Numbered from the stretch's first letter, positions 36,523-56,609 are shown. The stretch is 64,000 nucleotides of DNA from Actinomycetota bacterium (GCA_039185545.1 JBCDAK010000001.1:3652-67651); one strand, 5' to 3'. Translations and numbers: made by a program. The notes: generated by a model not told the origin, from the sequence alone.

Positions 36523-36600
36523 GGTCGTTGCTCCCTCCACGGCTGCGGCTGCATGGTCGGGTCGCAGTCCCGATTCGGCCGCCCATCCGCGTATCGGTCG

Positions 36601-36614: not shown

Positions 36615-36823
36615 GTGAGCGAAGTTCACCGCCGCGTGACGAATTGATTTCGAACGTCACCGAACCGTAGCAGTTTCGTCATGGAGTCATCGCCGGCGTC
36701 GTCAACTGTCCACATCTCGACAACACCTCCTGCCGGGCGCTCGCGTGCCGGCCCCGTCGTTCGGAGTACAGTTCCGCACCCGATGGGCGAGCTTCCCCCG
36801 GCCTCTCCCGGCGGTGACCCGTC

Positions 36824-40192: not shown

Positions 40193-41311
40193 GTGACCGA
40201 ACCGCGTTCGATCACGCCCGGAGCCGCCGTCCGCTGGGGCATCGTCGGCGGGGGGCCGATGGCCGCCGGGTTCGCCGCCGACCTCCGACAGGTCGACGGG
40301 GCCGAGATCGTCGCGGTCACGTCACGCACGGCCGAGTCGGCCATACGTGCCGGCGCACGTCTGCGGATCGATCGGGTGCACCCCGATCTCGACGCATTCG
40401 CGGCCGACGACACCATCGACGTCGCGTACGTGGCGACGCCACACCACACCCACGCCGACATCACGATCGCGCTGCTCGAGGCAGGCGTCGCGGTGGTGTG
40501 CGAGAAGCCGTTCGCGCTCGACGGTGACGAGGCGAGACGCATGGTCGGCGCCGCTCGTGACGCCGGGGTCTTCTGCATGGAGGCGATGTGGACCCGCTTC
40601 CTGCCGGCGATCCGACGGGCCCGCGCCGTCGTGTCGGAGGGTGGCATCGGCGACCTCCTCGAGGTGCACGCCGACTTCAGCGTCAACGTGCCGATCCGCG
40701 AGGGCGACCGACGGTTCGATCCGTCCACGGGAGGCGGTGCGCTGCTCGACCTGGGTGTGTACACCGCAGCGATCGCCGACCTGTTCGCCGGTCCGGTCGA
40801 GTCGGGTGACGACGCGGTCGCTGCGCACGTGGCCATCGGTCCCTCCGGCGTCGACGAGCGAGTCGCCGCGCTCGTCCGACACCAGTCGGGCGCCAGCTCG
40901 GTTCTCGGCGCGTCGATCGTCTCCGAGGGTCCCGGCCGGGCGCTCCTGGTCGGCACGACGGGAACGATCGAACTGCCGGGGCCCGTCTGCGCACCTGACC
41001 GGATGATCCTGCGGCGCCATGGCGGTGCCGTGGTCGCCACCAACGGACGGGGTGGCCTCGCCGGACGCGTGGCGTCGCTTCCCGGCGGGTCACAGCTGAC
41101 CGGAGTCGCTCGGACGGTCCGCCGACGGCTGGGTGCCAGGCGGGTCGAGCGACTTCCGGCGAACGGCAACGGCTACACCCACGAGATCGACGAGGTCCAC
41201 CGGTGTCTGCGCGCCGGACGGACAGAGAGCGACGCGCACGATCTCGACACCACGGTGCGCGTCGCCGACCTCCTCGACCGGATTCGCTGGGCATCGTCGT
41301 CGGAGTCCTGA
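40193..41311 (+). CDS. Gfo/Idh/MocA family oxidoreductase
   Basis: RWGIVGGG, YVATPH..H, VCEKPF, MEAMWTRF.P, GGGALLDLGVY. Confidence 0.92.
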   Translation: MTEPRSITPGAAVRWGIVGGGPMAAGFAADLRQVDGAEIVAVTSRTAESAIRAGARLRIDRVHPDLDAFAADDTIDVAYVATPHHTHADITIALLEAGVAVVCEKPFALDGDEARRMVGAARDAGVFCMEAMWTRFLPAIRRARAVVSEGGIGDLLEVHADFSVNVPIREGDRRFDPSTGGGALLDLGVYTAAIADLFAGPVESGDDAVAAHVAIGPSGVDERVAALVRHQSGASSVLGASIVSEGPGRALLVGTTGTIELPGPVCAPDRMILRRHGGAVVATNGRGGLAGRVASLPGGSQLTGVARTVRRRLGARRVERLPANGNGYTHEIDEVHRCLRAGRTESDAHDLDTTVRVADLLDRIRWASSSES

Positions 41312-41569
41312 CGGCCTCGTGCGGCGCGACCTCGACGGGGGCCACCGGACAGATCGTCACGAGATCGGCACGACGACCGCGGAGAGTCGTCGATACATTT
41401 CGCGGAGCACAGGGGCTCCCCGGACGGTGGGGTCGTGGCTCAAGACGACCTCGGATTCGTCCGACATCAACCGTGGTCGGCGCGTCCGGCGTCGCCGAGA
41501 CGCTCGCCGGTCCGGTCGAGGCGGGCAGACGCCCGAGTCGAGTGGGAACACGAGATCAGGAGACGAGTG

Positions 41570-41812
41570 ATGCGAAGCGATGTGGTCCGAGCGGTCGAGG
41601 AGGTCTGTGGGATCGGAGCAGCCGACCTCGTCGACGACGCCGATCTCGAGACCCTCGGGATCGACTCGCTCGACCTCATCGAGATCGGCATGATCCTCGA
41701 GGAGCAACACGGGATCGCGCTGGCCAGCGAGCAGTTCGAGTCCGTCACCACGTTCGGCGAGACCGTCGCGGTCATCGAACAGCAGAAGGCGGCGCAGGAC
41801 GCCGCGTCGTGA
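41570..41812 (+). CDS. Discrete acyl carrier protein
   Basis: ATG 41570 after an AGGAG RBS; acidic 80 aa with LGIDSLDLIEI. Confidence 0.9.
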   Translation: MRSDVVRAVEEVCGIGAADLVDDADLETLGIDSLDLIEIGMILEEQHGIALASEQFESVTTFGETVAVIEQQKAAQDAAS

Positions 41813-41827: not shown

Positions 41828-43027
41828 ATGACGTCCGCCATCGTCCGCGGCCTCGGAGTGGTCTCCCCCCTGGGGAGCGACCTGAACTCGTTCTCCCGCT
41901 CACTCGTCGACGCCGCCGAGACACGGGCGGTGGTCGCACGCACCACCCGGTACGAGCTGGAGTATCTGGCGTGTCATGCGTCGGGCTTCGAGCCCGCTGA
42001 TCGTTTCGAACGCCACGAGCTCCGTCGCCTCGATCGCGCTCACCTCATGGCGTTCTGGGCCGCCGACGACGCTCTCGCCATGGTGGGTGACGGGCCCGAT
42101 CCCGAGCGGTGCGCCGTGGTGGTCGGCACCGGGTTCGGCGCGGCCGGGTCGCACGAGGCGCAGAGCGAGGCGTGGCGTGACCGGGGTCCGCGAGCGGTCT
42201 CACCCCTCACGATTCCCGTCGTCATGTCGAACTCGATCGCCGCGCATCTCGCCATCCGGCTGGGTTGGACCGGCCCGGCGCTCACCATCGCCACGGCCTG
42301 CGCGTCCGGTGCCGACGCCATCGGCGAGGCGCTGTGGTTGCTGCGCACGGGCCGCGCCGACCGGGTGCTCGCCGGAGGAGTCGACGCGCTCCACGTCGAG
42401 CACGTGGTCACGGCATTCCTCCGGATGGAGGCCATGTCGAGCCGTCTCGACGACCCGGGCTCCGCGTCGCGCCCGTTCGATGCCGACCGCGACGGATTCG
42501 TCATGGGGGAGGGCGCCGGATTCGTGGTCCTCGAGCGTGACGACGGGTCGGTGACCGGTCTCGGCACCGTGTTCGGGTACGGCGTCAACAACGACGCGCA
42601 TCACATCGTCGCCCCGCCCGACGGAGGGGCCGGTGCCGCCGCGTGCGTGCGGGCCGCCCTGGTCGATGCGGGCATCGAGCCGAGCGACATCGCCCACGTC
42701 AACGCACATGGCACGTCGACGTCCCGCAACGACGCGGCCGAGGCGGCCGCTCTCGCCGACGTGTTCGGCCCATCGGCCGTCCCCGTCACCGCCACCAAGG
42801 CCGTCATGGGGCACCTGGTCGGTGGCGCCGGCGCCGTCGAGTGCATCGCTGCCGTCCTCACCGCTCAGAGCGGCGATCTCCCCGGCGTGAGGACTCTGTC
42901 CACGCTCGATCCCGAGATCGACGGCCTCATCGACGTCTCGAGCGACCGTCGCTCGATCGACCCCGGTCCGGCACTGAGCACCTCCTTCGGGTTCGGCGGT
43001 CACAACGCGTGCCTGGTGGTGGGTTGA
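41828..43027 (+). CDS. Beta-ketoacyl-ACP synthase II (FabF-like)
   Basis: TACASG (Cys), HVNAHGTST (His), TKAVMGH (Lys/His), RPFD..RDGFVMGEGAG, SFGFGGHN. Confidence 0.92.
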   Translation: MTSAIVRGLGVVSPLGSDLNSFSRSLVDAAETRAVVARTTRYELEYLACHASGFEPADRFERHELRRLDRAHLMAFWAADDALAMVGDGPDPERCAVVVGTGFGAAGSHEAQSEAWRDRGPRAVSPLTIPVVMSNSIAAHLAIRLGWTGPALTIATACASGADAIGEALWLLRTGRADRVLAGGVDALHVEHVVTAFLRMEAMSSRLDDPGSASRPFDADRDGFVMGEGAGFVVLERDDGSVTGLGTVFGYGVNNDAHHIVAPPDGGAGAAACVRAALVDAGIEPSDIAHVNAHGTSTSRNDAAEAAALADVFGPSAVPVTATKAVMGHLVGGAGAVECIAAVLTAQSGDLPGVRTLSTLDPEIDGLIDVSSDRRSIDPGPALSTSFGFGGHNACLVVG

Positions 43028-43028
43028 C

Positions 43029-46000
43029 GTGAGCTCCCCTCTCACGACCCGGTCGGACCACACGACCGCCGAGACGACCCGTGGCGTCACCGCGACGCAG
43101 GAGTCGATGTGGTTCGACGCTCGCCACGATCCCGATTCGGTGCATCTGCACGTCTCGTTCGCGGTCCGGCTCGACGCTCCCGTCGAGCCGAGTCACGCGG
43201 ACACGGTCATCCGCCATGCGATCGACACGTTCGACGATCTGCGTTCGGTGTTCGTCGACGTCGACGGTCGACCGGAGCGACGAATCCTCCCCGCCGGCGA
43301 CGTCGCAGCATGGCGATGCGACGACATCTCGGCCGACGATCTCGACGACGCGCTGAGGCAGCTCCACTGCGCGCCGTTCGACGTCGAGAACGGTCCGCTC
43401 GTCCGCTTCCAGGGGTATCTCCTCCCCGACGACTCGATGGTGGTCGCGATCGTCGCGCACCACCTCGTCGTCGACCTGTGGACCGTGGGCCTGCTCGGGG
43501 CGTGGCTCGCACAGGCCTACGCGGCCGTTCGACGCAGCGAGCCCATGCCGCCGCTCCGACGGCTCGGTTCGTTCCACCGGCACGTCGAGATCGAGTCGAC
43601 GCGCCTGGGCGGATCCGATCGTGCGGCGGCGCTCGAACACTGGCGCCCACTCGTCGACCACTCCCGGCCCACCACGCTCGTCGACGACGGACTCGTCGTC
43701 GGACCGCGACCCGGACTCGGTGACGTCGTCCCCGTCCGCCTCGATCGCGAGGTCGAGATCGGAATCCGCGACCTCGCCGACCGGCTCGGCACCTCGATTC
43801 GCTCGGTCGTGCTCGCCGCCCTCGACACGGTGCTCCACCGCACACTCGGATCCGACCGCGTCACGGTCATCGAGTCGAAGGCCAATCGAACCGGAGCGAC
43901 GGCCCGCACGCTGGGCTGCTGTCTCAACCAGGTCCTCCGGGTGTCGGAGGCCGAGTCGTCGACCACGGTGGCGCAGCTGATCGGCGAGGTCGATCGACAG
44001 ACCCGCGCCTCCCGACCGCACGACTGGCTCCCGCTGTCGACCCTCATGCACGAGACCGGTCGCCCGACCGGGTCGGTGCCGGCGACCGAGGTCGCGTTCT
44101 CGTGGCAGAAGTCGGTGCGTCTCGTCGATCCGTCGCTCGCCCGCTCGCTCGCGCTGGGTGATCGCTCGCTCGATCGCGATCGTGAGTCGGTCGCCGCGGC
44201 GTCGATGCCGGTGCGCTCGTCGCCGGCTGCGGTGACTCTCATCGGAGCGGGCGACGGCGGTTCCGTCACACTCGCCCTCGAGTACCAGGTGGAGCGCTTC
44301 GCCCGTTCGTCGATCGAACTCCTCGGCGAGCGCCTCGCTCGGGTGCTCCGAGCATCGATCATCGATCCCGACGTACCCGTCGATGATGTCGATCTGATCG
44401 GCTCCGATCAGCGAGAGCGGCAGCGCAGCGAGTTCGGGACCCTCGATTCCACGACCGCGACGTCCACCGTGTCCGATCTCGTCGATGAACGGATGGCTGC
44501 GTCGCCCGACTCGGTCGCCATCCGACATCGCGGGCGTCGGGTCACCTACGCCGAGCTCGGCCGTCGGACCGACCGGATCGCCGAGGTCCTCGCAGCGGTC
44601 GACGGAGACGATCCGATCGGGGTCCTCACCAGCCGGTCCGTCGACATGGTCGCTGCGGTGCTCGCCGTGTGGCGCTCCGGTCGGGGATTCGTCCCGCTCG
44701 ACCCGAGCTACCCCGCGGCGCGTCTCGGCGACATGATCGGCGACGCCGGAGTCAGCTGCGTCGTGGTCGATGCCACCACCGTCGGTGCGGCCGAGCTCGT
44801 CGACGTCCTCGAGCGTCCGAGCCTGACGGTCGTCGACCTCGACGACGTCCCCGACGATCCACCGACAGCGACCGATGCCCTCGACCGGACGGAGCGGGCG
44901 GTGCGTCCGGCGTCGTCGGCACGTCCCGACGGTCTCGCTCACGTCTACTTCACGTCGGGCTCGACCGGTCGCCCGAAGGGTGTCGCCGTCACCCAGGCGA
45001 GCCTCGCCGGATTCCTCCGTTCGATGTGCGAACGGATCGAACTCGACGAGAACGACGTCGTCGCCGCGTCGACGACGCTCTCGTTCGACCCGGCGCTCCT
45101 CGAGCTCGTCGGCACGCTCGTGGTCGGGGGTGAGGTGCTGTTGATCGATCGCGACACCGTCGTCGACCCCGTCCTCTTCGGGCGCGCGCTCGGCGAAGCG
45201 ACCCTGGTGCAGGCGACGCCGACCGTGTACCGCATGCTGATCGAGAACGGCTGGACCGGTCACGATCGACTCGCGATCCTCTGCGGCGGCGAACCGATGA
45301 CACCGCAACTCGCCGCCGACCTGTCGGTTCGGGGAGCGTCGGTCTGGAATCTCTACGGGCCGACCGAGACCACGGTGTGGGCGACCGCCGATCGCGTCGA
45401 GCCCGGACACCGTCGGATCGGGCTCGGTCGACCGCTGCCCGGCGTGTGTCTCCACGTGCTCGACGAGCACTCGCGACCGGTCCCCGACGGCACCATCGGG
45501 GAGCTGTGGATCGGCGGCGACGGCGTCGCGATCGGATATGTCGGCCGGCCCGACCTCACCGCCGAACGCTTCGTCGACGATCCGTTCGTCGGGCGGCAGC
45601 GTCCGATGTACCGCACCGGCGATCTCGTCCGGCACGGACCGGGCGGCGTCCTCGAATTCCACGGCCGCACCGACTCGCAGGTCAAGGTCCGCGGTCACCG
45701 GATCGAGCTGGGCGAGATCGAAGCGGTGCTCGAGTCCCACCGGGCGGTGGTCGAGAGCGTGGCGACCGTGGTCGGTGACGGCGCCGACGCACGGCTCGTC
45801 GCGTTCGTGCGGGGCGAGACCGACCTCGACGCGACCGATCTCCGTCACTTCGCGTCGCGACGTCTTCCCCGGTCGATGCTGCCCGGTTCGATCGCGGTCG
45901 TCGAACGCTTCGCCCGCACGCCGAGCGGGAAGATCGACCGCCGACGTCTGCCGCAGGTCCACCTCGACGTCTCGGCCCCGGAATCGGCATCGGAGTCGGC

Positions 46001-48773
46001 GTCGACGGGCGCGGTCGACCTCGCCGATCCGACGCTGCTCGACGCGACGCTCGCGATCTACCGCGAGGTGCTCGATGCGCCGGAACTCGACGCGGACGCC
46101 GACTTCTTCGATTCCGGAGGTCACTCGCTCGACGCGACGCGCATCATCTCCCGACTCGAGTCCGCGACCGGGCGACGCCTCCCGATCCGCGCCGTGTTCG
46201 ATCACCCGTCTCCGCGCACCCTGGCCGTCGAGGTCGAGCGGACGCCCTCGGCGACGGTCTCCCGCCCCGATCACGGCCCGGCCGATGCGCCCGACCCGTC
46301 GTCGAGCGACGACCACACGACCTCGGGATCACTGACTCCGTCGCAGCGCAGGATGTGGTTCGCCCAGGCCGTCGACCCGTCGTCGACCACCTACAACCTC
46401 GCTGCACAGATCCGCGTGCGAGGTGGGCTGGAACTCGACGAGGTGCGCGCAGCCCTCGCTGCGGTGGTCGCCGATCAGCCGGCTCTGCGGTCGGCGTTCT
46501 CGGTCGACGACGGTGACATCGTCTCGACGGTGCACCCCGACGTGGTCCCCAGGATCGACGTCGTCGACCGTCGCTCCGTCGACGGAGTCGAGGCGCGCAT
46601 CGCCGCCGCGAGGTCGCGGATCGTCGAGCTCGCGCGGGCGCCGTTCGATCTGTCTCGTCCGCCGCTCGTGCGGTTCACCTGCGACGTGATCGACGCCGAC
46701 GACCTCGTGTTCGGCGTCGTGATCCATCACATCATCGCCGACCAGTGGTCGTTCGGGGTCCTGCTCGACGCCGTCGGCGTCGCCGTCGCGCAGCAGCGGG
46801 GTTCGCAGCCGGACAGTGAGAGCGGTGCTGGCGCCGACGGCGAGGTGGCCGACGTCTTCGTGTCGCCGTGGATCGAACGGGTCGAACCTGACGAGATCGA
46901 ACGGCAGATGGAGTACTGGCGTGGCCGGCTCGGCGGACTGTCGTCGCTCGAACTGCCCCTCGCTGCGACATCGCACCGCGAACGTCCGGCGTCCGCGGCA
47001 TCCGACGCGGGCGACGGCGTGCTGCTCGTCTCGCTCGACGACGGACTGCGGTCCGGAATCGACGCCTACGCGGCCGCACGCGGTGCGACCGGGTTCATGG
47101 TCTATGCGTCGACCCTGGCGTTGCTCCTGTCGGAGGTGGCCGGCTCCGACGACATCCCGATCGGGATGCCCATCGCGAACCGGCACCATCTCGACACCGA
47201 ACGGACGATCACCTCGTTGGTGAACACGCTGGTTCTGCGGATCGACACCTCCGGCCGAGTCGAGTTCGACGAGTTGCTGGCGCACGTGCGCGACTGTTCG
47301 CTCGAGGCCTACGACCATCAGGACGTCCCGTTCGACCGCATCGTGGGCGAACTCTCACCCCCGCGGGCCGGAGTGCGATCGCCGTTCTTCCAGGTGTTCC
47401 TCAACGTCCACAACGCCCCCATCGCGCTGCCGAGTCTGAGCGGCGCTCACTTCGACATCCTCCCGGTCGAGCACCGGGCCGTCGACTTCGACCTCTCGCT
47501 CACCATCGATCCCGAACTCACCGGCGTCCTGCGCGTCGAGTTCGACCCCCGACAGGTCACCGGCGACAGCGCGGCCGCCTGGTCGTCACGGTTCATCGAG
47601 ATGCTCCATCGGGTGGTGTCACCCGTCGGGCCGCCAACGATCGCCGAACTGCGTTCGACCGGTGCTGCGCCGATGGTCGCAGCGGGCGAGCTGATCGAAG
47701 TCGACGACCCCGCGGCCGAGGCGGGAACCTCGGTTCCCGCCGGCGGCCCGACCGAGGCTCGCTCCGACCGCGATGAGCGCCGTCGCGAGCTCGAGGGGAC
47801 GCTGGCCCGGATCTGGACCGACGTGCTCGACGTCGACCACGTCGAACTCGACGACGACTTCTTCGACCTCGGCGGCCACTCCCTGCTCGCTGTGCGCATG
47901 TTCGGTGAGATCCACGAGTCGACCGGCCGCCGACCGCCGATCGGGTTGCTGTTCCGCGCCCCCACGATCGCCGGTCTCGCCGCCCTCCTCGACCACGAGG
48001 GCTGGGCGTCGGAGTGGACCTCCATGGTGCGCGTGTCCGACGGCGATGCGACCGGTGTCCCCCTCTTCGTCATCACGCCGTACCTGATCTCGGCACTGAG
48101 CTTCCACGGTTTGGCGCAGGAGCTCGACGGGCGAGTCGTGTACGCCCTCGAGCCGCACGCCGTGGCGGCCGAGTCCGACGGTCGCGCATCGATCTCGCAG
48201 GTGGCCGCCCGCTACGTGAGCGAGATGAAGACGGTGCAGCCGGTCGGTCCGTACGACGTCGTCGGACACTGCGCCGGTGCCTGGGAGGCGCTCGAGGTGG
48301 TCGGCCGTCTCGAGGACCAGGGTGACGAGATCGGGTCGCTGACGGTCGTCGACATCGCTCCACCGGGCGTCGAGCCGCCGCGGCCGTCGCCGATCCGGTA
48401 CGTGCTCAGCCGGCTCCGGCTCTACACCCGGTCGGGTGCGAGCCGGTTGCTCCACGCGGCATGGTGGCGCACCCGAATGCTGCTGCTCGGATGGAGCGCA
48501 CGAGCGGGGTCCGGCGACGACGACACCTCACGTCGCGCCGCCGTCCGGGACGCACACCGGAGATACCGGGGTCGCCAGGTCCGAGCCGACATCCACCTGA
48601 TCCGCAGCGAGGAATGGAGTGGTCTGCCCGACAAGGACTGGCACCTCCGCTGGGCCGATCGGTCGTCGGGATCGCTCACGGTCGACACGGTTCCCGGCTC
48701 GCACGCGCGCCTCCTGCAGGCCGAGTCGCTCGACGACTTCGCCGAGGCGCTCCGGCGACACCTCGACGTCTGA
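43029..48773 (+). CDS. NRPS C-A-PCP-C-PCP-TE (second module lacks A; TE has a Cys nucleophile)
   Basis: C1 HHLVVD; A FTSGSTGRPKG, NLYGPTETT, YRTGD, GRTDSQVKVRGHRIE, SGKIDR; PCP GGHSL x2; C2 HHIIAD; TE GHCAG and GSH. Confidence 0.93.
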   Translation: MSSPLTTRSDHTTAETTRGVTATQESMWFDARHDPDSVHLHVSFAVRLDAPVEPSHADTVIRHAIDTFDDLRSVFVDVDGRPERRILPAGDVAAWRCDDISADDLDDALRQLHCAPFDVENGPLVRFQGYLLPDDSMVVAIVAHHLVVDLWTVGLLGAWLAQAYAAVRRSEPMPPLRRLGSFHRHVEIESTRLGGSDRAAALEHWRPLVDHSRPTTLVDDGLVVGPRPGLGDVVPVRLDREVEIGIRDLADRLGTSIRSVVLAALDTVLHRTLGSDRVTVIESKANRTGATARTLGCCLNQVLRVSEAESSTTVAQLIGEVDRQTRASRPHDWLPLSTLMHETGRPTGSVPATEVAFSWQKSVRLVDPSLARSLALGDRSLDRDRESVAAASMPVRSSPAAVTLIGAGDGGSVTLALEYQVERFARSSIELLGERLARVLRASIIDPDVPVDDVDLIGSDQRERQRSEFGTLDSTTATSTVSDLVDERMAASPDSVAIRHRGRRVTYAELGRRTDRIAEVLAAVDGDDPIGVLTSRSVDMVAAVLAVWRSGRGFVPLDPSYPAARLGDMIGDAGVSCVVVDATTVGAAELVDVLERPSLTVVDLDDVPDDPPTATDALDRTERAVRPASSARPDGLAHVYFTSGSTGRPKGVAVTQASLAGFLRSMCERIELDENDVVAASTTLSFDPALLELVGTLVVGGEVLLIDRDTVVDPVLFGRALGEATLVQATPTVYRMLIENGWTGHDRLAILCGGEPMTPQLAADLSVRGASVWNLYGPTETTVWATADRVEPGHRRIGLGRPLPGVCLHVLDEHSRPVPDGTIGELWIGGDGVAIGYVGRPDLTAERFVDDPFVGRQRPMYRTGDLVRHGPGGVLEFHGRTDSQVKVRGHRIELGEIEAVLESHRAVVESVATVVGDGADARLVAFVRGETDLDATDLRHFASRRLPRSMLPGSIAVVERFARTPSGKIDRRRLPQVHLDVSAPESASESASTGAVDLADPTLLDATLAIYREVLDAPELDADADFFDSGGHSLDATRIISRLESATGRRLPIRAVFDHPSPRTLAVEVERTPSATVSRPDHGPADAPDPSSSDDHTTSGSLTPSQRRMWFAQAVDPSSTTYNLAAQIRVRGGLELDEVRAALAAVVADQPALRSAFSVDDGDIVSTVHPDVVPRIDVVDRRSVDGVEARIAAARSRIVELARAPFDLSRPPLVRFTCDVIDADDLVFGVVIHHIIADQWSFGVLLDAVGVAVAQQRGSQPDSESGAGADGEVADVFVSPWIERVEPDEIERQMEYWRGRLGGLSSLELPLAATSHRERPASAASDAGDGVLLVSLDDGLRSGIDAYAAARGATGFMVYASTLALLLSEVAGSDDIPIGMPIANRHHLDTERTITSLVNTLVLRIDTSGRVEFDELLAHVRDCSLEAYDHQDVPFDRIVGELSPPRAGVRSPFFQVFLNVHNAPIALPSLSGAHFDILPVEHRAVDFDLSLTIDPELTGVLRVEFDPRQVTGDSAAAWSSRFIEMLHRVVSPVGPPTIAELRSTGAAPMVAAGELIEVDDPAAEAGTSVPAGGPTEARSDRDERRRELEGTLARIWTDVLDVDHVELDDDFFDLGGHSLLAVRMFGEIHESTGRRPPIGLLFRAPTIAGLAALLDHEGWASEWTSMVRVSDGDATGVPLFVITPYLISALSFHGLAQELDGRVVYALEPHAVAAESDGRASISQVAARYVSEMKTVQPVGPYDVVGHCAGAWEALEVVGRLEDQGDEIGSLTVVDIAPPGVEPPRPSPIRYVLSRLRLYTRSGASRLLHAAWWRTRMLLLGWSARAGSGDDDTSRRAAVRDAHRRYRGRQVRADIHLIRSEEWSGLPDKDWHLRWADRSSGSLTVDTVPGSHARLLQAESLDDFAEALRRHLDV

Positions 48774-48799: not shown

Positions 48800-49762
48800 T
48801 CAGCCGATCAGGAGGAAGTGGAACGACGAGTCCTCGGACACGATCGCGTCCGTACCCGTGTCTTCCTCGCCGAAACACCCCACCGGGATGGTGAGGCTGC
48901 CGCCCGTCACCGTGAGCGCAGCGGCGCCGAGCACGCAGGAGCGTCCGGCGTCACCCATGTCGGGGGTCGCGTCCTCGATCGCGGTCAGGAGCACTCGCGG
49001 CTCGAACCCGTCGGGCAGTCCCGAGACCGTCACCTCGTACTCGCCGTCGTCGTCGACGCCGACGGCCACGGCCGAGGAGATCCCCGTCGGGGCGGTGGAG
49101 GAGATGGACGGCGCCGACCCGGTGTCGTCGGTGACGACACCGCTCACGAAGACGCCGTCGCCGGCGACGGCCGACTGGGGGACGTAGTCGGTCTGGGCGT
49201 CGGTCACCGACAGGTACTCGGTCTCGGCATCGGTGATCCGGAGGTACACGTCGTCGTGGTCGTGCGGGCCGTAGAAACCGACGACGTCGATGATCACGTT
49301 GACCGATCCGACGTTGTTGAACACGTCGAACGTTCCCGTGTCGGAGAGAGGCGTGTTGACGCCGTTCGGCGTGGGTGGCTGACCCGGCGCCGGGTTGAGA
49401 CTCGAAGTGCCCGGATTGGCTCCACCGTCCCAGATGGTCAGGAACGTCTGCTCGGTGGCGCCCAGTGCGGTCACGTTGAGCGCGAGAGCGGTGGCCTCGG
49501 TGGGAATCGTGCACTCACCGTTGGTGCCGTGGGCGGTGAAGGTGACCGTTTCGCCGGCGCCGAGTGGACCGCTCTGGGGACCGACGTTGCTCGCCGGGCG
49601 CGTGTCGACCAGACGACACTGCTCGACGGTCGTGAACACCGATCCGGTCTCGGGATCGTCGGCGGAGACGAGCTGGATCGACGTCGCAGCGAACACTCCG
49701 CCGCCGATGACGGCGGCGGCGAGGACCGTGATGAAGGCGACGGGACGCGTTGAGAGCTTCAC
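48800..49762 (-). CDS. Secreted protein with one RxxDTR domain and an uncharacterised C-terminal region
   Basis: C-terminal part of the 865-aa track ORF, starting at GTG 49762. Signal peptide, CRLVDTR, ALNVTA...FLTIW...PGTSSLN...N...PL, VIIDVVG. Confidence 0.75.
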   Translation of the reverse strand: MKLSTRPVAFITVLAAAVIGGGVFAATSIQLVSADDPETGSVFTTVEQCRLVDTRPASNVGPQSGPLGAGETVTFTAHGTNGECTIPTEATALALNVTALGATEQTFLTIWDGGANPGTSSLNPAPGQPPTPNGVNTPLSDTGTFDVFNNVGSVNVIIDVVGFYGPHDHDDVYLRITDAETEYLSVTDAQTDYVPQSAVAGDGVFVSGVVTDDTGSAPSISSTAPTGISSAVAVGVDDDGEYEVTVSGLPDGFEPRVLLTAIEDATPDMGDAGRSCVLGAAALTVTGGSLTIPVGCFGEEDTGTDAIVSEDSSFHFLLIG

Positions 49763-49859
49763 GCCTGGTGAGGGTACTGGTGGCCGTTCGACCTGATCGT
49801 CTGGATCTCGTCTGTTCTCCCGTGCACCGAACCGACGGGGTGGGAGCTGAAGCCTGCTC

Positions 49860-51983
49860 GTGATGCGGCGCTTGTACCGTGACGCGGTGGCGTGGAGATC
49901 GGCGAGTGGGCCCTGGCGCGCGGCGATCCTGCTCGTCGCGATCGCACCCGCGTGCTCGCTGCTGGCCGATCCCGTCGAGCAGGGGGCCGACGATCCGCTG
50001 AGCGGCGGGGCTGATGTTGTCGTGCCGGGCGGGTCCGAACCGGTCGAGCCGTCGACCCGCGGGTCCGGTCGCGTCCAGCTCGCCGCGCGCCACGTCGTCG
50101 GGGAGGGTCGGGCGCTGCTCGCCGACACCGGAGGCGGCCGGATCGTCGTCGCCACCACGAGCCGCCTGCTGACGGTCGAGGGCGACACCGTGGTCGAGAT
50201 CCCGTCGGGTCTCGCCGGCGACGTCCGGTCGGTCGAGCTCACTCCCGACGGATCGGCGGTGGTGGTCGCCGGGGTCGGCGGTGGGGTCGAGGTCTGGCGG
50301 GTCGGCGACGAGCCGGCACTCGTCGCCGGGTTCTCCGACGTCACCCGGGAGTCGAGCGGAGGCACACGAGCTGCGGTCGCCGTCGGCGGTGACCTGCAGC
50401 TCGTCGACACGGCGTCGGGGGCGATCGATGCGTTCTCGATCGGCGAAGGCCGCGACATCATCGCGCTCGATGTCTCGAGTGGAGGATCGGCGGTCGCGGC
50501 GGTCGTCGGTGAGGGCGAGTCGCTGAGCGTGCTCCGCGCCGGGCCGTCGGCCGAGTTCGTCGACACGCCGCTCGGTCTCGACCCGGCCGTCCGCATCGAC
50601 ACCGTCGCGGTCGCCGAGTCGAGTGACCGGCTGGTCGTGGCCCACGGGCGGCTCGACGATCCGTTCGCCGGGCAGCTGTCGATCTGGGACGGTGACACGG
50701 CGGCCGAGCCCCAGGTCGTCGACCTCCCGGCCGCCGGATCGGCGAGTCGATGGGCGGTCACCGGCGACGGAACCGTGTGGTGGCTCGACGACACGGTTCT
50801 GCGGTCGATCGATCCCGCCGGGGTCGCGGTCGAGGTGCCGGTCGAGATCGAGGGTGAGAGTCGTGCCGTCGTGCCGGGTCCGGGCAGCCGAGTGGCGCTC
50901 GTCTCCGACTCCGGCGACGTCCAGGTCGTCGAGTCCACCTCGACCGTCGGTCGGTCCACGCTGGCCGACGCCGACCCGCTCTTCGTGTCCGGCCTTGGCG
51001 ATCGTCTCGCCATCGTCGACCTCGACGGGACCGTCCACGATCTCGACGTGGCGACCGGCGTCGCCGTTCGGATCGACCGCTTCGTCGCCGCCCCCGTCAC
51101 GTCGGTCGGAACGTCGGCCACGGGCGAGCTCGCGGTCGCGGCCACCGACGGCACGGTCACCGTCACGTCGGTCGCCGATCCGTTCGCGGGCCGGTCGCTC
51201 CTCCATCCCGAGGGTCGGGTCACCGCGGTCGAGTTCTCGCCCGACGGCGGTTCCCTCGTCACCGGGGTCGCCCAGCGTCGCACCGGGACCTCGTTCGACG
51301 ACACGGTCAGTGTGTACGGGCAGGAGCGGTCGGACCGGGTGTTCTCGGTCTGGGGCGAGGCCGAGAGCAACCCGCTCTGCACCTTCTTCGACAGCATCGT
51401 TCGCTACACGAACGACGGGTCGCGGATCATCGCGACGTCGCACGACTTCACGGCGTCGGTCCTCGATGCCGCGACCGGCGATCTGATCCACCAGTTCCCC
51501 GCCGAGGGCGGCACGATCCTCGACGTCGCGGTCAGCGAGGACGACGCGCAGCTGATCACGTCGGCCGACGGCGGACGGGTGGCGATCTGGGATCTCGACA
51601 CCTTCGAGCTCGTCGGCGAGTTCGCCGCGCCGCCGGGCGGGCTGTGGTCGATCGCGTTGCTCCCGGGCGGCGCGACGATGATCGGCAGCGATCTCTCGGG
51701 GCGGCTCGTCGAGGTCGACACGACGTCGGGCGCCGTACTCCGGACGTTCGCCAGCTCGACGGCGCGTGCGTCGCGATTGTCGCTGTCGACCGACGGTCGT
51801 TTCCTCGCGTCGGGAGCCGAGTCCGGGATCGTGCGCGTCTGGGACGTGGCGTCGGGTGAGCTCGCGGCCGAGGCGACCGGCCACGTGGGCGCCGTTCCGG
51901 CCGTGAGCTTCTCGTCCGACTCGACGTCGCTCGTGACCGGCTCGGTCGATGGCACGGTCGTGGTCTGGGACCTCGTCGGCTGA
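49860..51983 (+). CDS. WD40/beta-propeller repeat lipoprotein
   Basis: Lipobox-like IAPAC; WD-like repeats (GRVAIWD, GIVRVWD, GHVGAVPAVSFSSDSTSLVTGSVDGTVVVWD). Confidence 0.82.
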   Translation: MMRRLYRDAVAWRSASGPWRAAILLVAIAPACSLLADPVEQGADDPLSGGADVVVPGGSEPVEPSTRGSGRVQLAARHVVGEGRALLADTGGGRIVVATTSRLLTVEGDTVVEIPSGLAGDVRSVELTPDGSAVVVAGVGGGVEVWRVGDEPALVAGFSDVTRESSGGTRAAVAVGGDLQLVDTASGAIDAFSIGEGRDIIALDVSSGGSAVAAVVGEGESLSVLRAGPSAEFVDTPLGLDPAVRIDTVAVAESSDRLVVAHGRLDDPFAGQLSIWDGDTAAEPQVVDLPAAGSASRWAVTGDGTVWWLDDTVLRSIDPAGVAVEVPVEIEGESRAVVPGPGSRVALVSDSGDVQVVESTSTVGRSTLADADPLFVSGLGDRLAIVDLDGTVHDLDVATGVAVRIDRFVAAPVTSVGTSATGELAVAATDGTVTVTSVADPFAGRSLLHPEGRVTAVEFSPDGGSLVTGVAQRRTGTSFDDTVSVYGQERSDRVFSVWGEAESNPLCTFFDSIVRYTNDGSRIIATSHDFTASVLDAATGDLIHQFPAEGGTILDVAVSEDDAQLITSADGGRVAIWDLDTFELVGEFAAPPGGLWSIALLPGGATMIGSDLSGRLVEVDTTSGAVLRTFASSTARASRLSLSTDGRFLASGAESGIVRVWDVASGELAAEATGHVGAVPAVSFSSDSTSLVTGSVDGTVVVWDLVG

Positions 51984-52109: not shown

Positions 52110-54077
52110 TCAGTCGATGAGCCCTCGGCTGCGGAGCTCGGCGATCACGATGTCGGCCGCCTCTTCGGCGGTCATGGTCGAGGTGTCGAGAGCGACCTCG
52201 GGTGACTCGGGCAGCTCGTAGGGCGAGTCGATCCCGGTGAAGTTCGCCAGCTCGCCGCGCCGGGCCTTGGCGTACAGGCCCTTCGGATCGCGGCTCTCCG
52301 CGACGTCGAGCGGGGCGTGGACGTGCACCTCGAGGAACTCGCCGTCCTCCACTCGCTCGCGTGCGAGCCGACGCTCGGCGCGGAACGGGGAGATGAACGA
52401 GGCGAGCACCACGAGCCCGGCGTCGACCATGAGGCCGGCCACCTCGCTGACTCGACGGATGTTCTCGACCCGATCGACGTCGGTGAATCCGAGGTCGCGG
52501 TTGAGTCCGTGACGCACGTTGTCGCCGTCGAGCAGGTACGTGCGGACGCCCGCCGCGTGCAGCTTCTGTTCGACGATGTTGGCGACGGTCGACTTGCCCG
52601 CCCCCGACAGCCCGGTGAACCAGACGACACCCGGCCGGTGGCCTTGGCGCTCGATGCGGGTCTGCTTGTCGACCTGCACGTCCTGCCAATGGATGTTCTG
52701 TGAGCGGCGCAGCGCGAAGTGGAGCAGTCCGGCTCCCACCGTGTTCTGGGTGATCTTGTCGATGATGATGAATCCACCGGTGTCGCGGTTGCCGGGCTGG
52801 CCGGCGTTGCGTTCACCGATCGCGAGTCCCGGATACGGGTCGAACGGGATCGGTCGATCGAGGCTCAGGTTGCACACGCCGATCTCATTGAGCTCGAGTG
52901 TGTCTGCGGCGAGGTGTTCGAGGTTGTTGACGTCGACCCGATACTTCGGATTGGCGATCGTGACGCCGACGGTCCGGGTGCCGATCTTCATGAGGTACGG
53001 GCGCCCGGGGAGCATCGCGTCCTCGTGCATCCAGACGACGTGTGCCTCGAATTGGTCCGCCACCTCGGCGGGCGCATCGGCCGTGCACAGCAGGTCACCG
53101 CGCGAGGCGTCGATCTCGTCGGCGAGCGTGATCGTGACCGACTGGCCGGCCATCGCGACGTCGAGGTCGCCGTCCATCGTGACGATCCGGTCGACCGTCG
53201 ACGTGGTGCCGGACGGGAGCACACGGATCGGATCGCCCGGCTGGACGGTGCCGCCGACGATCTGACCGGAGAACCCCCGGAAGTCGAGGTTCGGCCGGTT
53301 GACCCACTGCACGGGCATGCGGAACGACTGGCTCGGTCGCTCGTCGTCGACCTCGACGGTCTCGAGGAATCCCATCAGCGTCGGGCCGTGGTACCAGTGC
53401 GTGTGGGCGCTCGGCTCGGTGACGTTGTCGCCCTTGAGCGCCGAGAGCGGGATGAACGTGATGTCGCCCGGGTCGGCGCCGAGGCCGATCCGCTCGGCGA
53501 ACTCGAGGTACTCCTCGCGGATCGAGTCGTAGACGTCCTTCGAGTAGTCGACGAGGTCCATCTTGTTGATGGCGATGACGACCTTCCGGAGCCCGAGCAG
53601 CGACACGAGGAAGCTGTGGCGCCGCGTCTGCGTGAGCACACCCTTGCGGGCGTCGACCAAGATCACCGCGACGTCGGCCGTGGACGCACCGGTGACCATG
53701 TTGCGCGTGTACTGCTCGTGGCCCGGTGTGTCGGCCACGATGAACTTGCGCTTCTCGGTGGTGAAGAACCGGTAGGCGACGTCGATCGTGATGCCCTGCT
53801 CGCGCTCCGCAGAGAGTCCGTCGAGGAGCAGTGCGAAGTCGAGGTCGCCGCCCTGGGTGCCCACCTTGGCCGAGTCGACCTCGAGCGCTGCGAGGTGGTC
53901 CTCGAAGACGAGATGCGACTCGTAGAGCAGTCGGCCGATGAGTGTGCTCTTGCCGTCGTCGACCGAGCCGCACGTGATGAACCGCAGCATCGACTTGTTC
54001 TGGTTCGCCTCGAGATACTCCGCGACGTCGGCCGCGATGTCCTCGGCCGGGGCGTTGACGGTGTCGGTGGCAGCCAT
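52110..54077 (-). CDS. cysNC: Bifunctional sulfate adenylyltransferase subunit 1 / APS kinase
   Basis: ATG 54077. [42 protein letters not shown]; kinase [30 protein letters not shown]. Confidence 0.96.
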
Positions 54078-55036
54078 CAGAAATGACCCTCCTGCTTCTT
54101 CTTCTCCAGCGAGCTGACGCCGTCGTGGTCGGCCACGCGGTTCTGACGTTCGGACGTGGTCGCGAGGAACAGCTCGCGGATGATGTCGGGAAGGCTGGCG
54201 GCGTCGGACTCGATCGCCCCCGTGATCGGATAGCAGCCGAGCGTGCGGAAGCGCACGAGACGCATCTCGGGCTCCTCGCCGGGCTCGAAGCGGAAGCGGT
54301 CGTCGTCGATGACGATCAGCGCGCCGTCGCGTTCGACGACAGGACGCTCCTTCGCGAGATACAGCGACACGAGCGGGATGCTCTCGAGGTGGATGTACTG
54401 CCACAGGTCGAGCTCGGTCCAGTTCGACAGCGGGAACACGCGGATGCTCTCGCCGGGGCTGCGCCGACCGTTGTAGAGCTGCCAGAGTTCGGGCCGCTGA
54501 CGCTTCGGGTCCCACTGGTGCTGCGGCGAGCGGATGGAGAACACCCGCTCCTTCGCCCGCGACTTCTCCTCGTCGCGTCGGGCCCCGCCGAAGCAGAGGT
54601 CGTACTTCTTCTCGTCGAGCAGCTGCTTGAGTCCCTCGGTCTTCCACATGTCGGTGTGCAGCGCCGAGCCATGATCGAACGGGTTGATGTCGCGCTCGAT
54701 GCACTCGGGGTTGTGGTGGACGACGAGGTCCATACCGAGCTTCTCCGCGGTCGCGTCGCGGAACGAGTACATCTCCTGGAACTTCCACATCGTGTCGACG
54801 TGGACCAGCGGGAACGGGGGAGTGCTCGGGAAGAACGCCTTGACGGCGAGATGCAGCATCACCGAGCTGTCCTTGCCGACCGAGTAGAGCATCGCCGGGT
54901 TGTCGGCCTCGGCGGCCGCCTCGCGCATGATCTGGATCGCCTCGGCCTCGAGCCGCTCCAGGTGGGTGAGGCGCTCGGGCGTGATCCGCACGGCCGACGC
55001 GCCCCCCGTCTCAGATTTCTCCGCAATGTCCGTCAT
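54077..55036 (-). CDS. cysD: Sulfate adenylyltransferase subunit 2
   Basis: ATG 55036. [59 protein letters not shown]. Confidence 0.96.
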
Positions 55037-56118: not shown

Positions 56119-56144
56119 CGTCGTGCCTCGTCTCGTGAGCGGGG

Positions 56145-56609
56145 TCAACCCGTTCGTTGGCGGGTCTCGCGCTGGTACTGCTCGGCGAGTTCGTCGACGC
56201 TCTCGGGCAGCTCGCCCGATGTCAGGTCGGCCAGCGTGACGGTCTCGAGCACGTTGCGCAGGCTTCCGCGGATCGCCATCCAGACGCGCGGCAACGATTC
56301 GGCGGGCGGGGGATACGACAGGTCACGGAGGCTCTCGTCGTGCACGTCGGCCAACGGGCCGTCGATGGCCCGGAAGACGTCGGCGATCGTGATGGCGTCG
56401 GGCGGTCGTGACAGGGTGAAGCCGCCGTCGGGACCGCGCTTCGACCGCACGAGCTCGGCCCGTTTGAGATCGCGCAGGATGTCGAGGAGGTACTTGAGCG
56501 AGATGTCCTGGCCGGTGGCGATGGCCTCGGCCTTCATGGCCGAGCCGTCGGCCGTCGACAAGGCGGCCGCCGCACGGACGGCGTTGTCGACCCGCTCGCT
56601 GATCCGCAT
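56145..56609 (-). CDS. Rrf2 family transcriptional regulator (no Cys; CymR-like)
   Basis: ATG 56609. IS.KYL.DIL.DL....LV.S.RG..GGF.L.RPP..IT. The protein contains no cysteine. Confidence 0.9.

What the first reader, a model, noticed from the sequence alone, without database searches (positions are those of the whole stretch)
48020..48773. Thioesterase with a cysteine nucleophile (GHCAG)
Seen: G-H-C-A-G (Cys codon TGC at 48270-48272) replaces GxSxG, and the catalytic His (GSH) is retained. Established: Cys-type NRPS TEs include ObiF (beta-lactone), SulM (beta-lactam) and polymyxin synthetase, and they are often tied to unusual release chemistry. Inference: it could catalyse transacylation to a sugar OH/NH2 or strained-ring formation rather than hydrolysis.
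Basis: partly seen in the sequence, partly recalled or inferred. Interest (0 to 1): 0.66.

Follow-up and report, generated by a model that had tools for sequence, protein, structure and literature searches.

The report
Cysteine-nucleophile NRPS thioesterase, conserved clade
The release domain of a small peptide-making enzyme really uses cysteine instead of the usual serine, and so do its uncultured-bacteria relatives; this fits a rare but known enzyme type and argues against strained-ring chemistry.

Summary
ORF 43029-48773 (+) is a 1914-aa NRPS with domains C-A-T-C-T-TE. Its terminal type-I thioesterase reads G-H-C-A-G, with TGC at 48270-48272 on the nucleophile elbow. Asp sits at the canonical +27 position (48351-48353) and His at 48702-48704.

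The cysteine is not a one-off. It is kept in 3/3 word-index homologues, in 12/12 nearest genome loci found without using the motif, and in 56 of 57 representative clusters of a GGHC[ASGDT]G clade. All of these come from Acidimicrobiia or Chloroflexota metagenome bins. Both TGC and TGT codons occur.

The strained-ring reading is not supported. ObiF and SulM move the Asp to after beta7 and carry Gly at +27, whereas this domain keeps Asp at +27. The only A domain has a glycine-like code, so glycine would offer no beta-nucleophile. The triad matches MacB/PmxB-TE, BulbE-TE and AB3403.

An ACP-KS-NRPS cassette recurs beside Wzx/Wzy glycan, sulfotransferase and PKS genes in several lineages, so transfer to a glycan-pathway acceptor stays possible. 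Clade members in housekeeping contexts also carry Cys, so the residue is a clade trait.

Verdict: a new, uncharacterised member of a known kind, of moderate interest.

The parts
41435..41812 (+). Stand-alone acyl carrier protein. The true start is probably internal, because the PP-binding match covers aa 49-113.
   Evidence: Pfam PP-binding, E 5e-12; weak NCBIfam ACP/AcpM-like matches. It is conserved directly upstream of the KS in L002, L046, L047, L048 and L050.
41828..43027 (+). FabF-like (KAS II) ketosynthase with Cys-His-His active-site motifs (ATACASG, NAHGTST, MGHLVGG).
   Evidence: Pfam ketoacyl-synt N and C domains; NCBIfam fabF, 361 bits, below the equivalog cut-off; translation. It is 45-63% identical in L002, L003, L046-L050.
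43029..48773 (+). NRPS of 1914 aa with domain order C-A-T-C-T-TE. The second module has no A domain.
   Evidence: Pfam domains; GC3 of 0.86 marks a real gene; the same architecture occurs in P0009, P0012, P0015, P0022, P0033 and P0039.
43086..44408 (+). C1 condensation domain (HHLVVD at 43458-43475). It is divergent and is presumably the acyl-ACP-accepting starter domain.
   Evidence: PDB hits are weaker than for C2 (best Txo2 at 3e-22, AB3403 C at 3e-15). The starter role is inferred.
44484..45944 (+). Adenylation domain with specificity code DPLQLGLVW(K), which is glycine-like.
   Evidence: Pfam AMP-binding and AMP-binding_C. The code was read by alignment to a recalled GrsA-PheA segment. 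Gly signatures of the DILQLGMIWK type are listed in PMC12283262.
46053..46226 (+). T1 carrier domain (FFDSGGHSL at 46104-46130).
46329..47621 (+). C2 condensation domain (HHIIAD at 46725-46742), of the ordinary elongation type.
   Evidence: The closest solved structures are Txo1/Txo2 C domains and the fuscachelin PCP-C didomain, E 1e-45 to 1e-51.
47754..47993 (+). T2 carrier domain (FFDLGGHSL at 47859-47885). No A domain lies in the same module.
47997..48770 (+). Type-I thioesterase domain with a Cys-Asp-His triad.
   Evidence: PF00975 at 77 bits. AlphaFold2 model with pLDDT 89.8 and pTM 0.87. Foldseek top hits are NocB TE, Vlm2 TE, 7crn, FAS TE, AB3403 and Pks13 TE.
48264..48278 (+). Nucleophile elbow G-H-C-A-G, with Cys TGC at 48270-48272.
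   Evidence: G, H, C and G are each 100% conserved in the clade.
48351..48353 (+). Catalytic Asp candidate (GAC), 27 residues after the Cys and directly after the beta6 strand (position I).
   Evidence: 96-98% conserved; model strand 112-118 is followed by D119; aligned on the Asp of 7crn, NocB and AB3403.
48702..48704 (+). Catalytic His (CAC) in PGSHARL, after the last core strand.
   Evidence: 98% conserved; aligned on the His of NocB and 7crn.
48630..48653 (+). Clade signature D-K-D-W-H-L-R-W, at the start of the helix that follows beta7. Its role is unknown.
   Evidence: H216 and W219 are invariant; D212 and W215 are at least 90% conserved. The helix spans residues 211-222 in the model.

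Best explanation
This is a working terminal NRPS thioesterase that uses a Cys-His-Asp triad in the ordinary geometry: Cys on the elbow after beta5, Asp 27 residues later after beta6, and His after beta8. It belongs to an uncharacterised clade with the signature GGHC[AS]G, found in uncultured Acidimicrobiia and Chloroflexota, in which the cysteine is under purifying selection.

Proposed pathway (inferred):
1. The FabF-like KS and its ACP supply an acyl or 3-oxoacyl chain.
2. C1 joins that chain to glycine on T1.
3. C2 adds whatever T2 carries, most simply a second glycine loaded by the same A domain.
4. The chain moves from T2 to the Cys thiol by an energy-neutral thioester exchange.
5. The acyl-S-enzyme is resolved by a nucleophile other than water, most likely a nitrogen. 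This mirrors the three characterised Cys TEs with the same triad layout or nucleophile (MacB/PmxB-TE, BulbE-TE, SulM), where Cys is required for aminolysis and Ser variants only hydrolyse.

In this locus the acceptor would most plausibly come from the co-conserved sulfated-glycan pathway. That last step is the least certain. It is not a beta-lactone or beta-lactam former.
For: Shown here:
- Domain order and triad residues.
- Cys conservation in 3/3, 12/12 and 56/57 relatives, with TGC/TGT synonymous variation.
- Asp at +27 is 96-98% conserved and follows beta6 in a confident model.
- The closest solved relatives are ordinary type-I TEs plus the Cys-type AB3403, which has GGWCFGG and aligns at E 1e-27. 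ObiF1 reaches only E 2e-3.
- The A domain has a Gly-like code in the window and in all six other C-A-T-C-T-TE representatives (P0039 weakest, 5/9), and in 20 of 36 TE-proximal A domains of the clade.
- C2 looks like a normal elongation C domain.
- The KS has the Cys-His-His motifs.

From the literature:
- MacB-TE (Cys89/Asp116/His218) and BulbE-TE (Cys961/Asp988/His1097) share the +27 spacing and need Cys for amide formation (PMC13288461; PMC11536411).
- Thioester acyl-enzymes favour aminolysis over hydrolysis.

Context:
- The ACP-KS-NRPS cassette lies with GT4 (60-63% id), Wzy, Wzz, Tyr-kinase, Wzx, hexapeptide transferases, sulfotransferases and a PKS in L047, L048/49 and L050 as in the window.
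Against: No product, acceptor or activity is known for any clade member. All database relatives are unnamed proteins from metagenomes.

The cargo of T2 is unknown, because the module has no A domain.

Mono- and bimodular clade members with the same Cys sit among housekeeping genes, with no glycan genes within 10 kb. The Cys therefore cannot be read as an adaptation to a sugar acceptor.

A conserved acidic residue (E206) and D212 also follow beta7. I had no model coordinates, so I could not measure which acid contacts the His.

An N-acyl-Gly-Gly chain has no internal amine, so aminolysis would need an outside acceptor that I could not identify. No sugar aminotransferase was found in the window.

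The specificity code rests on a hand-anchored alignment to a recalled reference sequence.
Confidence: 0.55

Rival explanations
1. Plain hydrolase. The TE simply releases a free N-acyl-glycine or N-acyl-diglycine acid, and the cysteine is a neutral, inherited clade trait with no special chemistry.
For: The triad geometry is canonical. The clade occurs in many contexts with no obvious acceptor pathway. AB3403, a Cys relative with glycine bound in its A site, has no defined product.
Against: Ser is one base change away, yet Cys is kept in 56/57 clusters spanning 25-49% identity, with synonymous codon changes. In every Cys TE tested so far, the Ser variant loses the native reaction and hydrolyses instead.
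Confidence: 0.2
2. Dieckmann cyclase-like release. The KS and ACP make a 3-oxoacyl chain, the NRPS makes an N-(3-oxoacyl)-aminoacyl thioester, and the Cys TE closes a tetramic acid ring, as TrdC, SlgL and KirHI do.
For: Dieckmann cyclases use a Cys88-Asp115-His253 triad with the same +27 spacing, and KirHI accepts N-acetoacetyl-glycyl thioesters (PMC4979870). A Cys-His-His KS with its own ACP and no KR/DH lies directly upstream.
Against: A full C-T module separates the first glycine from the TE. If a second residue is added, the 3-oxoamide is no longer next to the thioester. Known Dieckmann cyclases are stand-alone proteins in clusters that lack a TE. None appeared among the PDB sequence or fold matches shown. 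Bimodular clade members also keep the Cys.
Confidence: 0.08
3. Carrier-to-carrier or carrier-to-thiol shuttle. The Cys TE passes the chain as a thioester to another carrier protein, such as the nearby PKS or the A(MOX)-T protein, or to a small thiol, as the Cys alpha/beta-hydrolases SyrC and CmaE do.
For: A thioester acyl-enzyme keeps the energy needed for another thioester. A PKS orthologue co-occurs with clade NRPSs in the window, L050 and L053. The SyrC/CmaE precedent comes from my own knowledge and was not checked here.
Against: The PKS has its own loading protein and its own Ser TE. In the window it lies 34 kb away on the other strand. I did not test sequence similarity to SyrC or CmaE.
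Confidence: 0.1
4. Beta-lactone or beta-lactam forming TE of the ObiF/SulM kind.
For: It shares the Cys nucleophile. The lid is strongly basic (net charge +11), loosely recalling SulM's positively charged pocket. Sulfotransferase genes are present in the locus.
Against: Asp at +27 is invariant where ObiF has Gly, whereas ObiF and SulM place the Asp after beta7. There is no Gln-Cys-Asn motif. The A domain has a Gly-like code, so glycine would offer no beta-nucleophile. ObiF1 is only a remote sequence match at E 2e-3, and neither ObiF nor SulM is in the top 50 fold matches. The basic lid is shared by related Ser TEs too.
Confidence: 0.03

Closest known systems
AB3403 (ABBFA_003403) termination module of Acinetobacter baumannii, PDB 4ZXH/4ZXI
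   Same: It is a C-A-T-TE NRPS fed by a separate carrier protein. Its TE has a Cys nucleophile (GGWCFGG) with the Asp after beta6. Glycine was bound in its A domain. It is the second-best solved sequence relative of the clade profile (E 1e-27) and has the highest query TM-score (0.68).
   Different: The elbow is G-W-C-F-G rather than G-H-C-A-G, and the lid and C-terminal half align poorly. It has one module rather than C-A-T-C-T-TE. It is from a proteobacterium. Its product is also undefined, so it gives no function.
MacB-TE / PmxB-TE (macolacin and polymyxin B synthetases)
   Same: Cys-Asp-His triad with Asp 27 residues after Cys (Cys89/Asp116/His218). Cys is indispensable for release by an amine nucleophile, and the Ser variant is acylated but does not cyclise (PMC13288461).
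   Different: These TEs macrocyclise a cationic decapeptide through the Dab4 side chain and have an acidic surface. The present TE has a very basic lid and probably a short acyl-Gly(-Gly) substrate with no internal amine. I made no direct sequence comparison, because the sequences were not held here.
BulbE-TE (bulbiferamide synthetase)
   Same: Cys961/Asp988/His1097, with Asp after beta6 at +27. Cys cannot be replaced by Ser. The thioester intermediate is used for attack by a poor nitrogen nucleophile (PMC11536411).
   Different: It makes an intramolecular indolylamide macrocycle in a ureidopeptide. Nothing here suggests a Trp-containing substrate.
ObiF TE and SulM TE (beta-lactone and beta-lactam formation)
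   Same: Cys nucleophile in an NRPS terminal TE.
   Different: In those enzymes the Asp is moved to after beta7, with Gly at +27. SulM has a Gln-Cys-Asn motif. The C-terminal residue carries a beta-OH or beta-NH-sulfonate. None of these holds here. ObiF1 is only a marginal sequence hit.
Stand-alone Dieckmann cyclases TrdC/SlgL/LipX2/KirHI
   Same: Cys88-Asp115-His253 triad with the same +27 spacing. They act on N-(3-oxoacyl)-aminoacyl thioesters, including glycyl ones (PMC4979870). A KS and ACP that could make a 3-oxoacyl chain are present here.
   Different: They are free-standing enzymes in clusters without a TE and are reported as phylogenetically distinct from TE domains. Here the domain is fused and lies behind an extra C-T module.
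Pks13 TE of mycobacteria (transfer of mycolate to trehalose)
   Same: It is a terminal type-I TE that hands its acyl chain to a sugar hydroxyl. It is a weak NCBIfam match (E 5e-6) and a fold match with TM about 0.63. The trehalose-transfer function is from my own knowledge.
   Different: Pks13 TE uses Ser and belongs to a PKS. The similarity is no greater than to other type-I TEs.

Membership tests
Type-I thioesterase domain (Pfam PF00975), alpha/beta-hydrolase fold | Profile match above the curated cut-off at the C-terminus of a carrier-protein-containing synthetase | tested here: met
   77 bits against a cut-off of 26.4, aa 1678-1910, directly after T2.
Type-I thioesterase domain (Pfam PF00975), alpha/beta-hydrolase fold | Alpha/beta-hydrolase core with a helical lid between beta6 and beta7 | tested here: met
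   AlphaFold2 model with pLDDT 89.8; strands at 86-91, 112-118, 199-204 and 227-232, with lid helices 132-189. Foldseek probability is 1.00 to NocB, Vlm2, FAS, EntF and Pks13 TEs.
Type-I thioesterase domain (Pfam PF00975), alpha/beta-hydrolase fold | G-x-S-x-G nucleophile elbow with Ser | tested here: not met
   The elbow is G-H-C-A-G; Cys replaces Ser. This is the known Cys variant, said to make up about 2% of TEs.
Cys-type NRPS TE with canonical triad (MacB/PmxB-TE, BulbE-TE, AB3403) | Cys at the nucleophile elbow after beta5 | tested here: met
   Aligned on the nucleophile of NocB, 7crn and AB3403; follows strand 86-91 in the model.
Cys-type NRPS TE with canonical triad (MacB/PmxB-TE, BulbE-TE, AB3403) | Catalytic Asp after beta6, 27 residues after the nucleophile | tested here: met
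   D119 = C92 + 27; 96-98% conserved; follows strand 112-118. The spacing equals that of MacB (89/116) and BulbE (961/988). The contact with His was not measured, because no coordinates were available.
Cys-type NRPS TE with canonical triad (MacB/PmxB-TE, BulbE-TE, AB3403) | Cys required for the native release reaction, with the Ser variant hydrolysing | not testable with these tools
   This needs enzyme assays. The indirect support is purifying selection on Cys.
Beta-lactone/beta-lactam forming TEs (ObiF, SulM) | Catalytic Asp relocated to the loop after beta7, with a non-acidic residue (Gly in ObiF) at +27 | tested here: not met
   Asp is invariant at +27; the definition is.
Beta-lactone/beta-lactam forming TEs (ObiF, SulM) | C-terminal residue with a beta-hydroxyl or beta-amino/sulfamate nucleophile (A-domain code for beta-OH amino acid or Dap) | tested here: not met
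   The only A domain reads DPLQLGLVW(K), which is Gly-like. Caveat: T2 has no A domain of its own.
Beta-lactone/beta-lactam forming TEs (ObiF, SulM) | SulM-type Gln-Cys-Asn motif | tested here: not met
   The motif here is His-Cys-Ala, and His-Cys-[A/S/G/D/T] across the clade.
Dieckmann cyclases (TrdC/SlgL/KirHI) | Cys-Asp-His triad with Asp at +27 | tested here: met
   C92/D119/H236 compared with Cys88/Asp115/His253.
Dieckmann cyclases (TrdC/SlgL/KirHI) | Free-standing enzyme in a cluster that lacks a TE domain, acting on an N-(3-oxoacyl)-aminoacyl carrier thioester | tested here: not met
   Here the domain is fused to the NRPS behind a C-T module. No such enzyme appears among the PDB sequence or fold matches shown.

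The most novel reading that the evidence does not exclude
In Acidimicrobiia, a conserved ACP-KS-NRPS cassette embedded in Wzx/Wzy, sulfotransferase-rich glycan loci uses its Cys thioesterase to attach an NRPS-made N-acyl-(Gly)n unit covalently to the glycan pathway. The target could be an amino or hydroxyl group of a sugar or of a lipid-linked repeat unit. The result would be a lipopeptide-decorated or lipopeptide-anchored sulfated polysaccharide. This would be an NRPS acting as a glycan-modifying enzyme, with the thioester acyl-enzyme enabling transfer to a weak outside nucleophile.
Probability: 0.2. Interest if true: 0.8.

Novelty: new member of a known kind. Interest (0 to 1): 0.45.

Why it matters
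Cysteine thioesterases are reported to make up about 2% of NRPS release domains. In each characterised case read here (ObiF, SulM, MacB/PmxB, BulbE) the cysteine enables chemistry that serine cannot do.

This work defines a whole clade of at least about 56 clusters at 50% identity, with an invariant Cys and the signature GGHC[AS]G. It is found in uncultured Acidimicrobiia and Chloroflexota, for which no product is known. Members closest to the window take a glycine-ending chain, as may be the case for the equally unexplained AB3403.

The work also shows how to separate Cys TEs likely to make four-membered rings (Asp moved, beta-nucleophile present) from those that do not. That helps genome mining.

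If the link to the sulfated-glycan locus is functional, it would be an unusual meeting of non-ribosomal peptide and polysaccharide biosynthesis. If not, this is an ordinary, though rare, variant of a release domain.

Tried and rejected
- Translating the finding's coordinates as given (48020 start) yields an out-of-frame nonsense peptide. The correct frame is that of ORF 43029-48773.
- A first domain-by-domain tblastn used out-of-frame slices for the A, T1 and T2 domains. It was redone with protein slices.
- An exact-sequence look-up of the NRPS found no record, probably because the called start differs.
- A full-length NRPS homology search was swamped by long multimodular NRPSs and added only P0034.
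- The final word-index search with the clade profile returned only unnamed metagenome proteins, so no characterised member was found.
- A basic lid (net +11) looked like a possible substrate clue. It is shared by related non-GHC Cys TEs, and to a lesser degree by Ser TEs picked up by the same profile, so I do not use it as evidence.
- I looked for glycan genes around mono- and bimodular clade members and found housekeeping genes instead. This rejects the idea that the Cys is tied to sugar transfer across the clade.
- A sugar aminotransferase that would supply an amino-sugar acceptor was not found among the window genes scanned.
- The first literature search on the polymyxin claim found nothing. 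A later search confirmed it.
- I could not obtain model coordinates, so triad distances were not measured.


Full report
**What is in the sequence**

The window is high-GC DNA (69.6% GC). The finding lies at the 3' end of a 5745-base ORF, 43029-48773 on the + strand, whose GC3 of 0.86 marks a real gene. Its 1914-aa product has Pfam domains Condensation, AMP-binding, PP-binding, Condensation, PP-binding and Thioesterase, i.e. C-A-T-C-T-TE.

This is cosmetic.

**Is the Cys really the nucleophile?**

phmmer against PDB chains aligns the motif on the nucleophile elbow of the NocB TE (GWSFG) and of the bifunctional TE 7crn (GWSLG).

An Asp in VVDIAPP (GAC 48351-48353) lies exactly 27 residues after the Cys and aligns with the catalytic Asp of those enzymes. 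The His of PGSHARL (CAC 48702-48704) aligns with their catalytic His.

An AlphaFold2 model built on 29 clade sequences is confident (pLDDT 89.8, pTM 0.87). It shows:
- strand 86-91, then Cys92;
- helix 94-107;
- strand 112-118, then Asp119;
- a helical lid, residues 132-189;
- strand 199-204;
- strand 227-232, then His236.

Foldseek returns ordinary type-I TEs: NocB, Vlm2, 7crn, FAS, AB3403, Pks13 and EntF, with TM about 0.6-0.68. The domain is therefore a normal type-I TE with Cys in place of Ser and the canonical 'position I' Asp.

**Is the Cys conserved?**

- The three word-index homologues (40-46% identity) all read GHCAG.
- A scan of 185,579 species genomes used two peptide patterns that do not contain the motif. 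It returned 45 loci, and the 12 closest (35-94% identity) all read GHC[A/S]G.
- An exhaustive HMMER search of 1.84 billion representatives gave 273 hits below 1e-30. Among the top 150, 56 full-length domains form a GGHC[ASGDT]G group with one Ser exception, P0045.
- Within this group G90, H91, C92 and G94 are 100% conserved, D119 96-98% and H236 98%.
- A further 23 database proteins read GHC[A/S/D].
- The codon is TGC in most loci and TGT in five. The amino acid is thus held while the codon drifts, although Ser is a single base change away.

Beyond this clade the next-nearest TEs are also largely Cys types (G-x-C-F-G-G, as in AB3403), followed by Ser types.

**Who carries it?**

All relatives come from metagenome-assembled genomes or metagenomes, mainly Acidimicrobiia (Ilumatobacter, Acidimicrobiales) and Chloroflexota (Ardenticatenaceae, Anaerolineae, Leptofilum). 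None is named beyond 'thioesterase domain-containing protein'. L001, an Actinomycetota bin, is 94% identical and is probably the same or a sister species.

**Architectures**

Clade TEs end small NRPSs of three kinds: C-A-T-TE, C-A-T-C-A-T-TE and C-A-T-C-T-TE. The last, the window's own form, recurs in six other representative clusters: P0009, P0012, P0015, P0022, P0033 and P0039.

**What the NRPS probably builds**

Directly upstream lie a stand-alone ACP (41435-41812) and a FabF-like KS (41828-43027) with Cys-His-His motifs. This ACP-KS-NRPS cassette is conserved in L002, L003/L051, L046, L047, L048/49 and L050.

I read the A-domain specificity code by aligning to the GrsA-PheA segment. The reference sequence was recalled from memory, and its known positions check out internally. 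The window gives DPLQLGLVW(K). The other C-A-T-C-T-TE proteins give DILQLGMVW, DILQLGLVW or DILTLGMVW. DILQLGMIWK is a published Gly signature, and Leu/Met299, Leu/Met322, Ile/Val330 and Trp331 are described as Gly-derived (PMC12283262). Twenty of 36 TE-proximal A domains in the clade are Gly-like, including nearly all those closest to the window.

C2 resembles ordinary elongation C domains, with E 1e-45 to 1e-51 to Txo1/2 and the fuscachelin PCP-C. C1 is more divergent.

The closest full-length relative, P0034, is C-A-T-C-A-T-TE with two roughly Gly-like A domains (5/9 each for the TE-proximal one). My inference is that the single A domain loads both T1 and T2 and the chain delivered to the TE is N-acyl-Gly-Gly. 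The cargo of T2 is not shown.

**Comparison with known Cys TEs**

ObiF and SulM, which form beta-lactone and beta-lactam rings, place the catalytic Asp after beta7 and have Gly at +27. SulM also has a Gln-Cys-Asn motif. Both need a beta-nucleophile on the last residue (PMC6668435 and PMC11298585). None of this holds here, and ObiF1 is only a marginal profile hit (E 2e-3). The strained-ring reading is therefore disfavoured.

Three Cys TEs share the +27 Asp layout:
- AB3403, which has no defined product and had glycine in its A site.
- MacB-TE, 90.6% identical to PmxB-TE of polymyxin. Cys89 is indispensable for macrolactam formation, and the Ser variant is acylated but does not cyclise (PMC13288461).
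- BulbE-TE, where Cys is needed for attack by an indole nitrogen (PMC11536411).

These papers give the chemical rationale: a thioester acyl-enzyme is much more reactive to amines than an oxoester but not more reactive to water.

Stand-alone Dieckmann cyclases also use Cys88-Asp115-His253 with the same spacing (PMC4979870). That gives a rival reading in view of the KS. The extra C-T module, the fused format and the absence of any detected similarity argue against it.

**Context**

The window is a large glycan locus. It contains:
- a priming transferase (548-2140);
- several GT2, GT4 and WecG transferases;
- hexapeptide acyltransferases;
- Wzz, a Tyr autokinase, Wzy and Wzx;
- two GFO/IDH/MocA oxidoreductases just upstream of the ACP;
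- a PAPS supply set (CysN/C fusion, CysQ-like phosphatase, anion transporter);
- two sulfotransferases.

L047, L048/49 and L050 carry the cassette beside orthologues of the same GT4 (60-63% identity), Wzy, Wzz, kinase and Wzx. They also share unknown secreted proteins (43-52% identity), a WD40 protein, hexapeptide transferases, sulfotransferases and the PKS. Gene order differs but the set stays together, which suggests a functional link between the cassette and a sulfated glycan.

Against reading the Cys as a sugar-transfer adaptation, mono- and bimodular clade members (L004, L005, L008, L010, L011, L012, L053) lie among housekeeping genes such as ilvC, infB, nusA, argS and bacA. They have no glycan genes within 10 kb, although L053 again has the PKS and a PPTase nearby.

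**Verdict**

The domain is a functional Cys-His-Asp type-I TE of the canonical-Asp kind, in a new, uncharacterised and phylogenetically restricted clade.

It most likely takes a glycine-ending acyl-peptide as a thioester and passes it to a non-water nucleophile. The identity of that nucleophile is open. It could be a glycan-pathway amine or hydroxyl, a polyamine or another carrier. Plain hydrolysis cannot be excluded, and ring strain chemistry is unlikely.

The domain is a new member of a known kind, and interest is moderate. The more novel possibility, an NRPS that acylates a sulfated polysaccharide, is worth a direct test.

Noticed in passing
window 8829-13649 (-) and 2464-8832 (-): A 1606-aa protein has a formyltransferase-like N-terminus, an A domain split by a luciferase-like monooxygenase, and a T domain. 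Its hand-read code is DILQLGMIW(K), the Gly/MOX signature listed in PMC12283262. Its stop overlaps the start of a 2122-aa PKS (KS-AT-KR-DH-ACP-TE) whose TE uses Ser (GFSGG). A MOX-interrupted Gly module at the loading end of a PKS is unusual. PKS orthologues (41-43% id) lie near clade NRPSs in L050 and L053.
   Followed up: partly
window 52110-54788 (-), 55114-56148 (-), 56682-58448 (+), 58498-59559 (-), 62948-63949 (+): A sulfation toolkit sits next to the NRPS: a CysN/CysC fusion (GTPase plus APS kinase), a CysQ-like inositol-monophosphatase-family protein, a CitMHS/TrkA_C anion transporter and two sulfotransferases. Relatives L046 and L048/49 also have sulfotransferases beside the cassette, so the final product is probably sulfated.
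   Followed up: partly
window 548-41311: A complete Wzx/Wzy-type polysaccharide locus. It comprises Bac_transf 548-2140 (-), GT4 13770-14906 (-), hexapeptide transferases 17731-18411 and 18572-19114, GT2 18952-20382, WecG 20204-21496 and Wzz 21639-22691. It continues with a Tyr autokinase 22691-23758, Wzy_C 23933-25561, GT4 25596-26675 (-), Wzx 28313-30166, GT2 36824-37822, a GT4-GFO/IDH/MocA fusion ending at 40173, and GFO 40193-41311.
   Followed up: partly
window 26668-28614 (-), 31371-33245 (+), 34567-36660 (-): Three large proteins have no Pfam match and a single N-terminal hydrophobic segment, so they are probably secreted or anchored. The first is 50-52% identical to genes next to the cassette in L048/49 and L050. 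The second and third are paralogues and match one gene in L050. Their function is unknown.
   Followed up: partly
window 49860-51983 (+); L001 6055-8175; L048 3241-5244: A 707-aa WD40 beta-propeller protein with an N-terminal hydrophobic segment lies next to the NRPS here, in L001 (94% id) and, at 35% identity, in L048/49. It is a recurring neighbour of unknown role.
   Followed up: no
window 16266-17816 (-); L005 12927-14390: A PLP-dependent Orn/DAP/Arg decarboxylase gene is in the locus, and a distant homologue lies near the clade NRPS in L005. It could supply a diamine acceptor, but this is speculative.
   Followed up: no
proteins P0060, P0067, P0069, P0071, P0076 (representative search): In the wider G-x-C-F-G-G group of Cys TEs, some TE domains are internal (C-A-T-TE-C-A-T-TE) or tandem (TE-TE). 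Some second copies have Gly, Ala, Asp, Asn or Gln at the nucleophile position. Internal Cys TE domains followed by another module are odd.
   Followed up: no
protein P0045 (275 aa): This is the only member of the GH[C/S] clade with Ser (GHSSG). It is a short fragment, and its context was not examined.
   Followed up: no
L012 and L053: Bimodular clade NRPSs sit in a conserved neighbourhood of PAC2-family protein, NRPS, PPTase and ilvC/ilvN/ilvB. L053 also has the large PKS 5.7 kb away. This suggests a lineage-wide, possibly housekeeping-like metabolite in Acidimicrobiia.
   Followed up: partly
window 14906-16266, 30166-31371, 48800-49860: These stretches have no ORF with coding-like GC3. The long ORF 48800-51397 (-) that overlaps the WD40 gene looks spurious. 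Small genes, frameshifts or regulatory regions were not examined.
   Followed up: no
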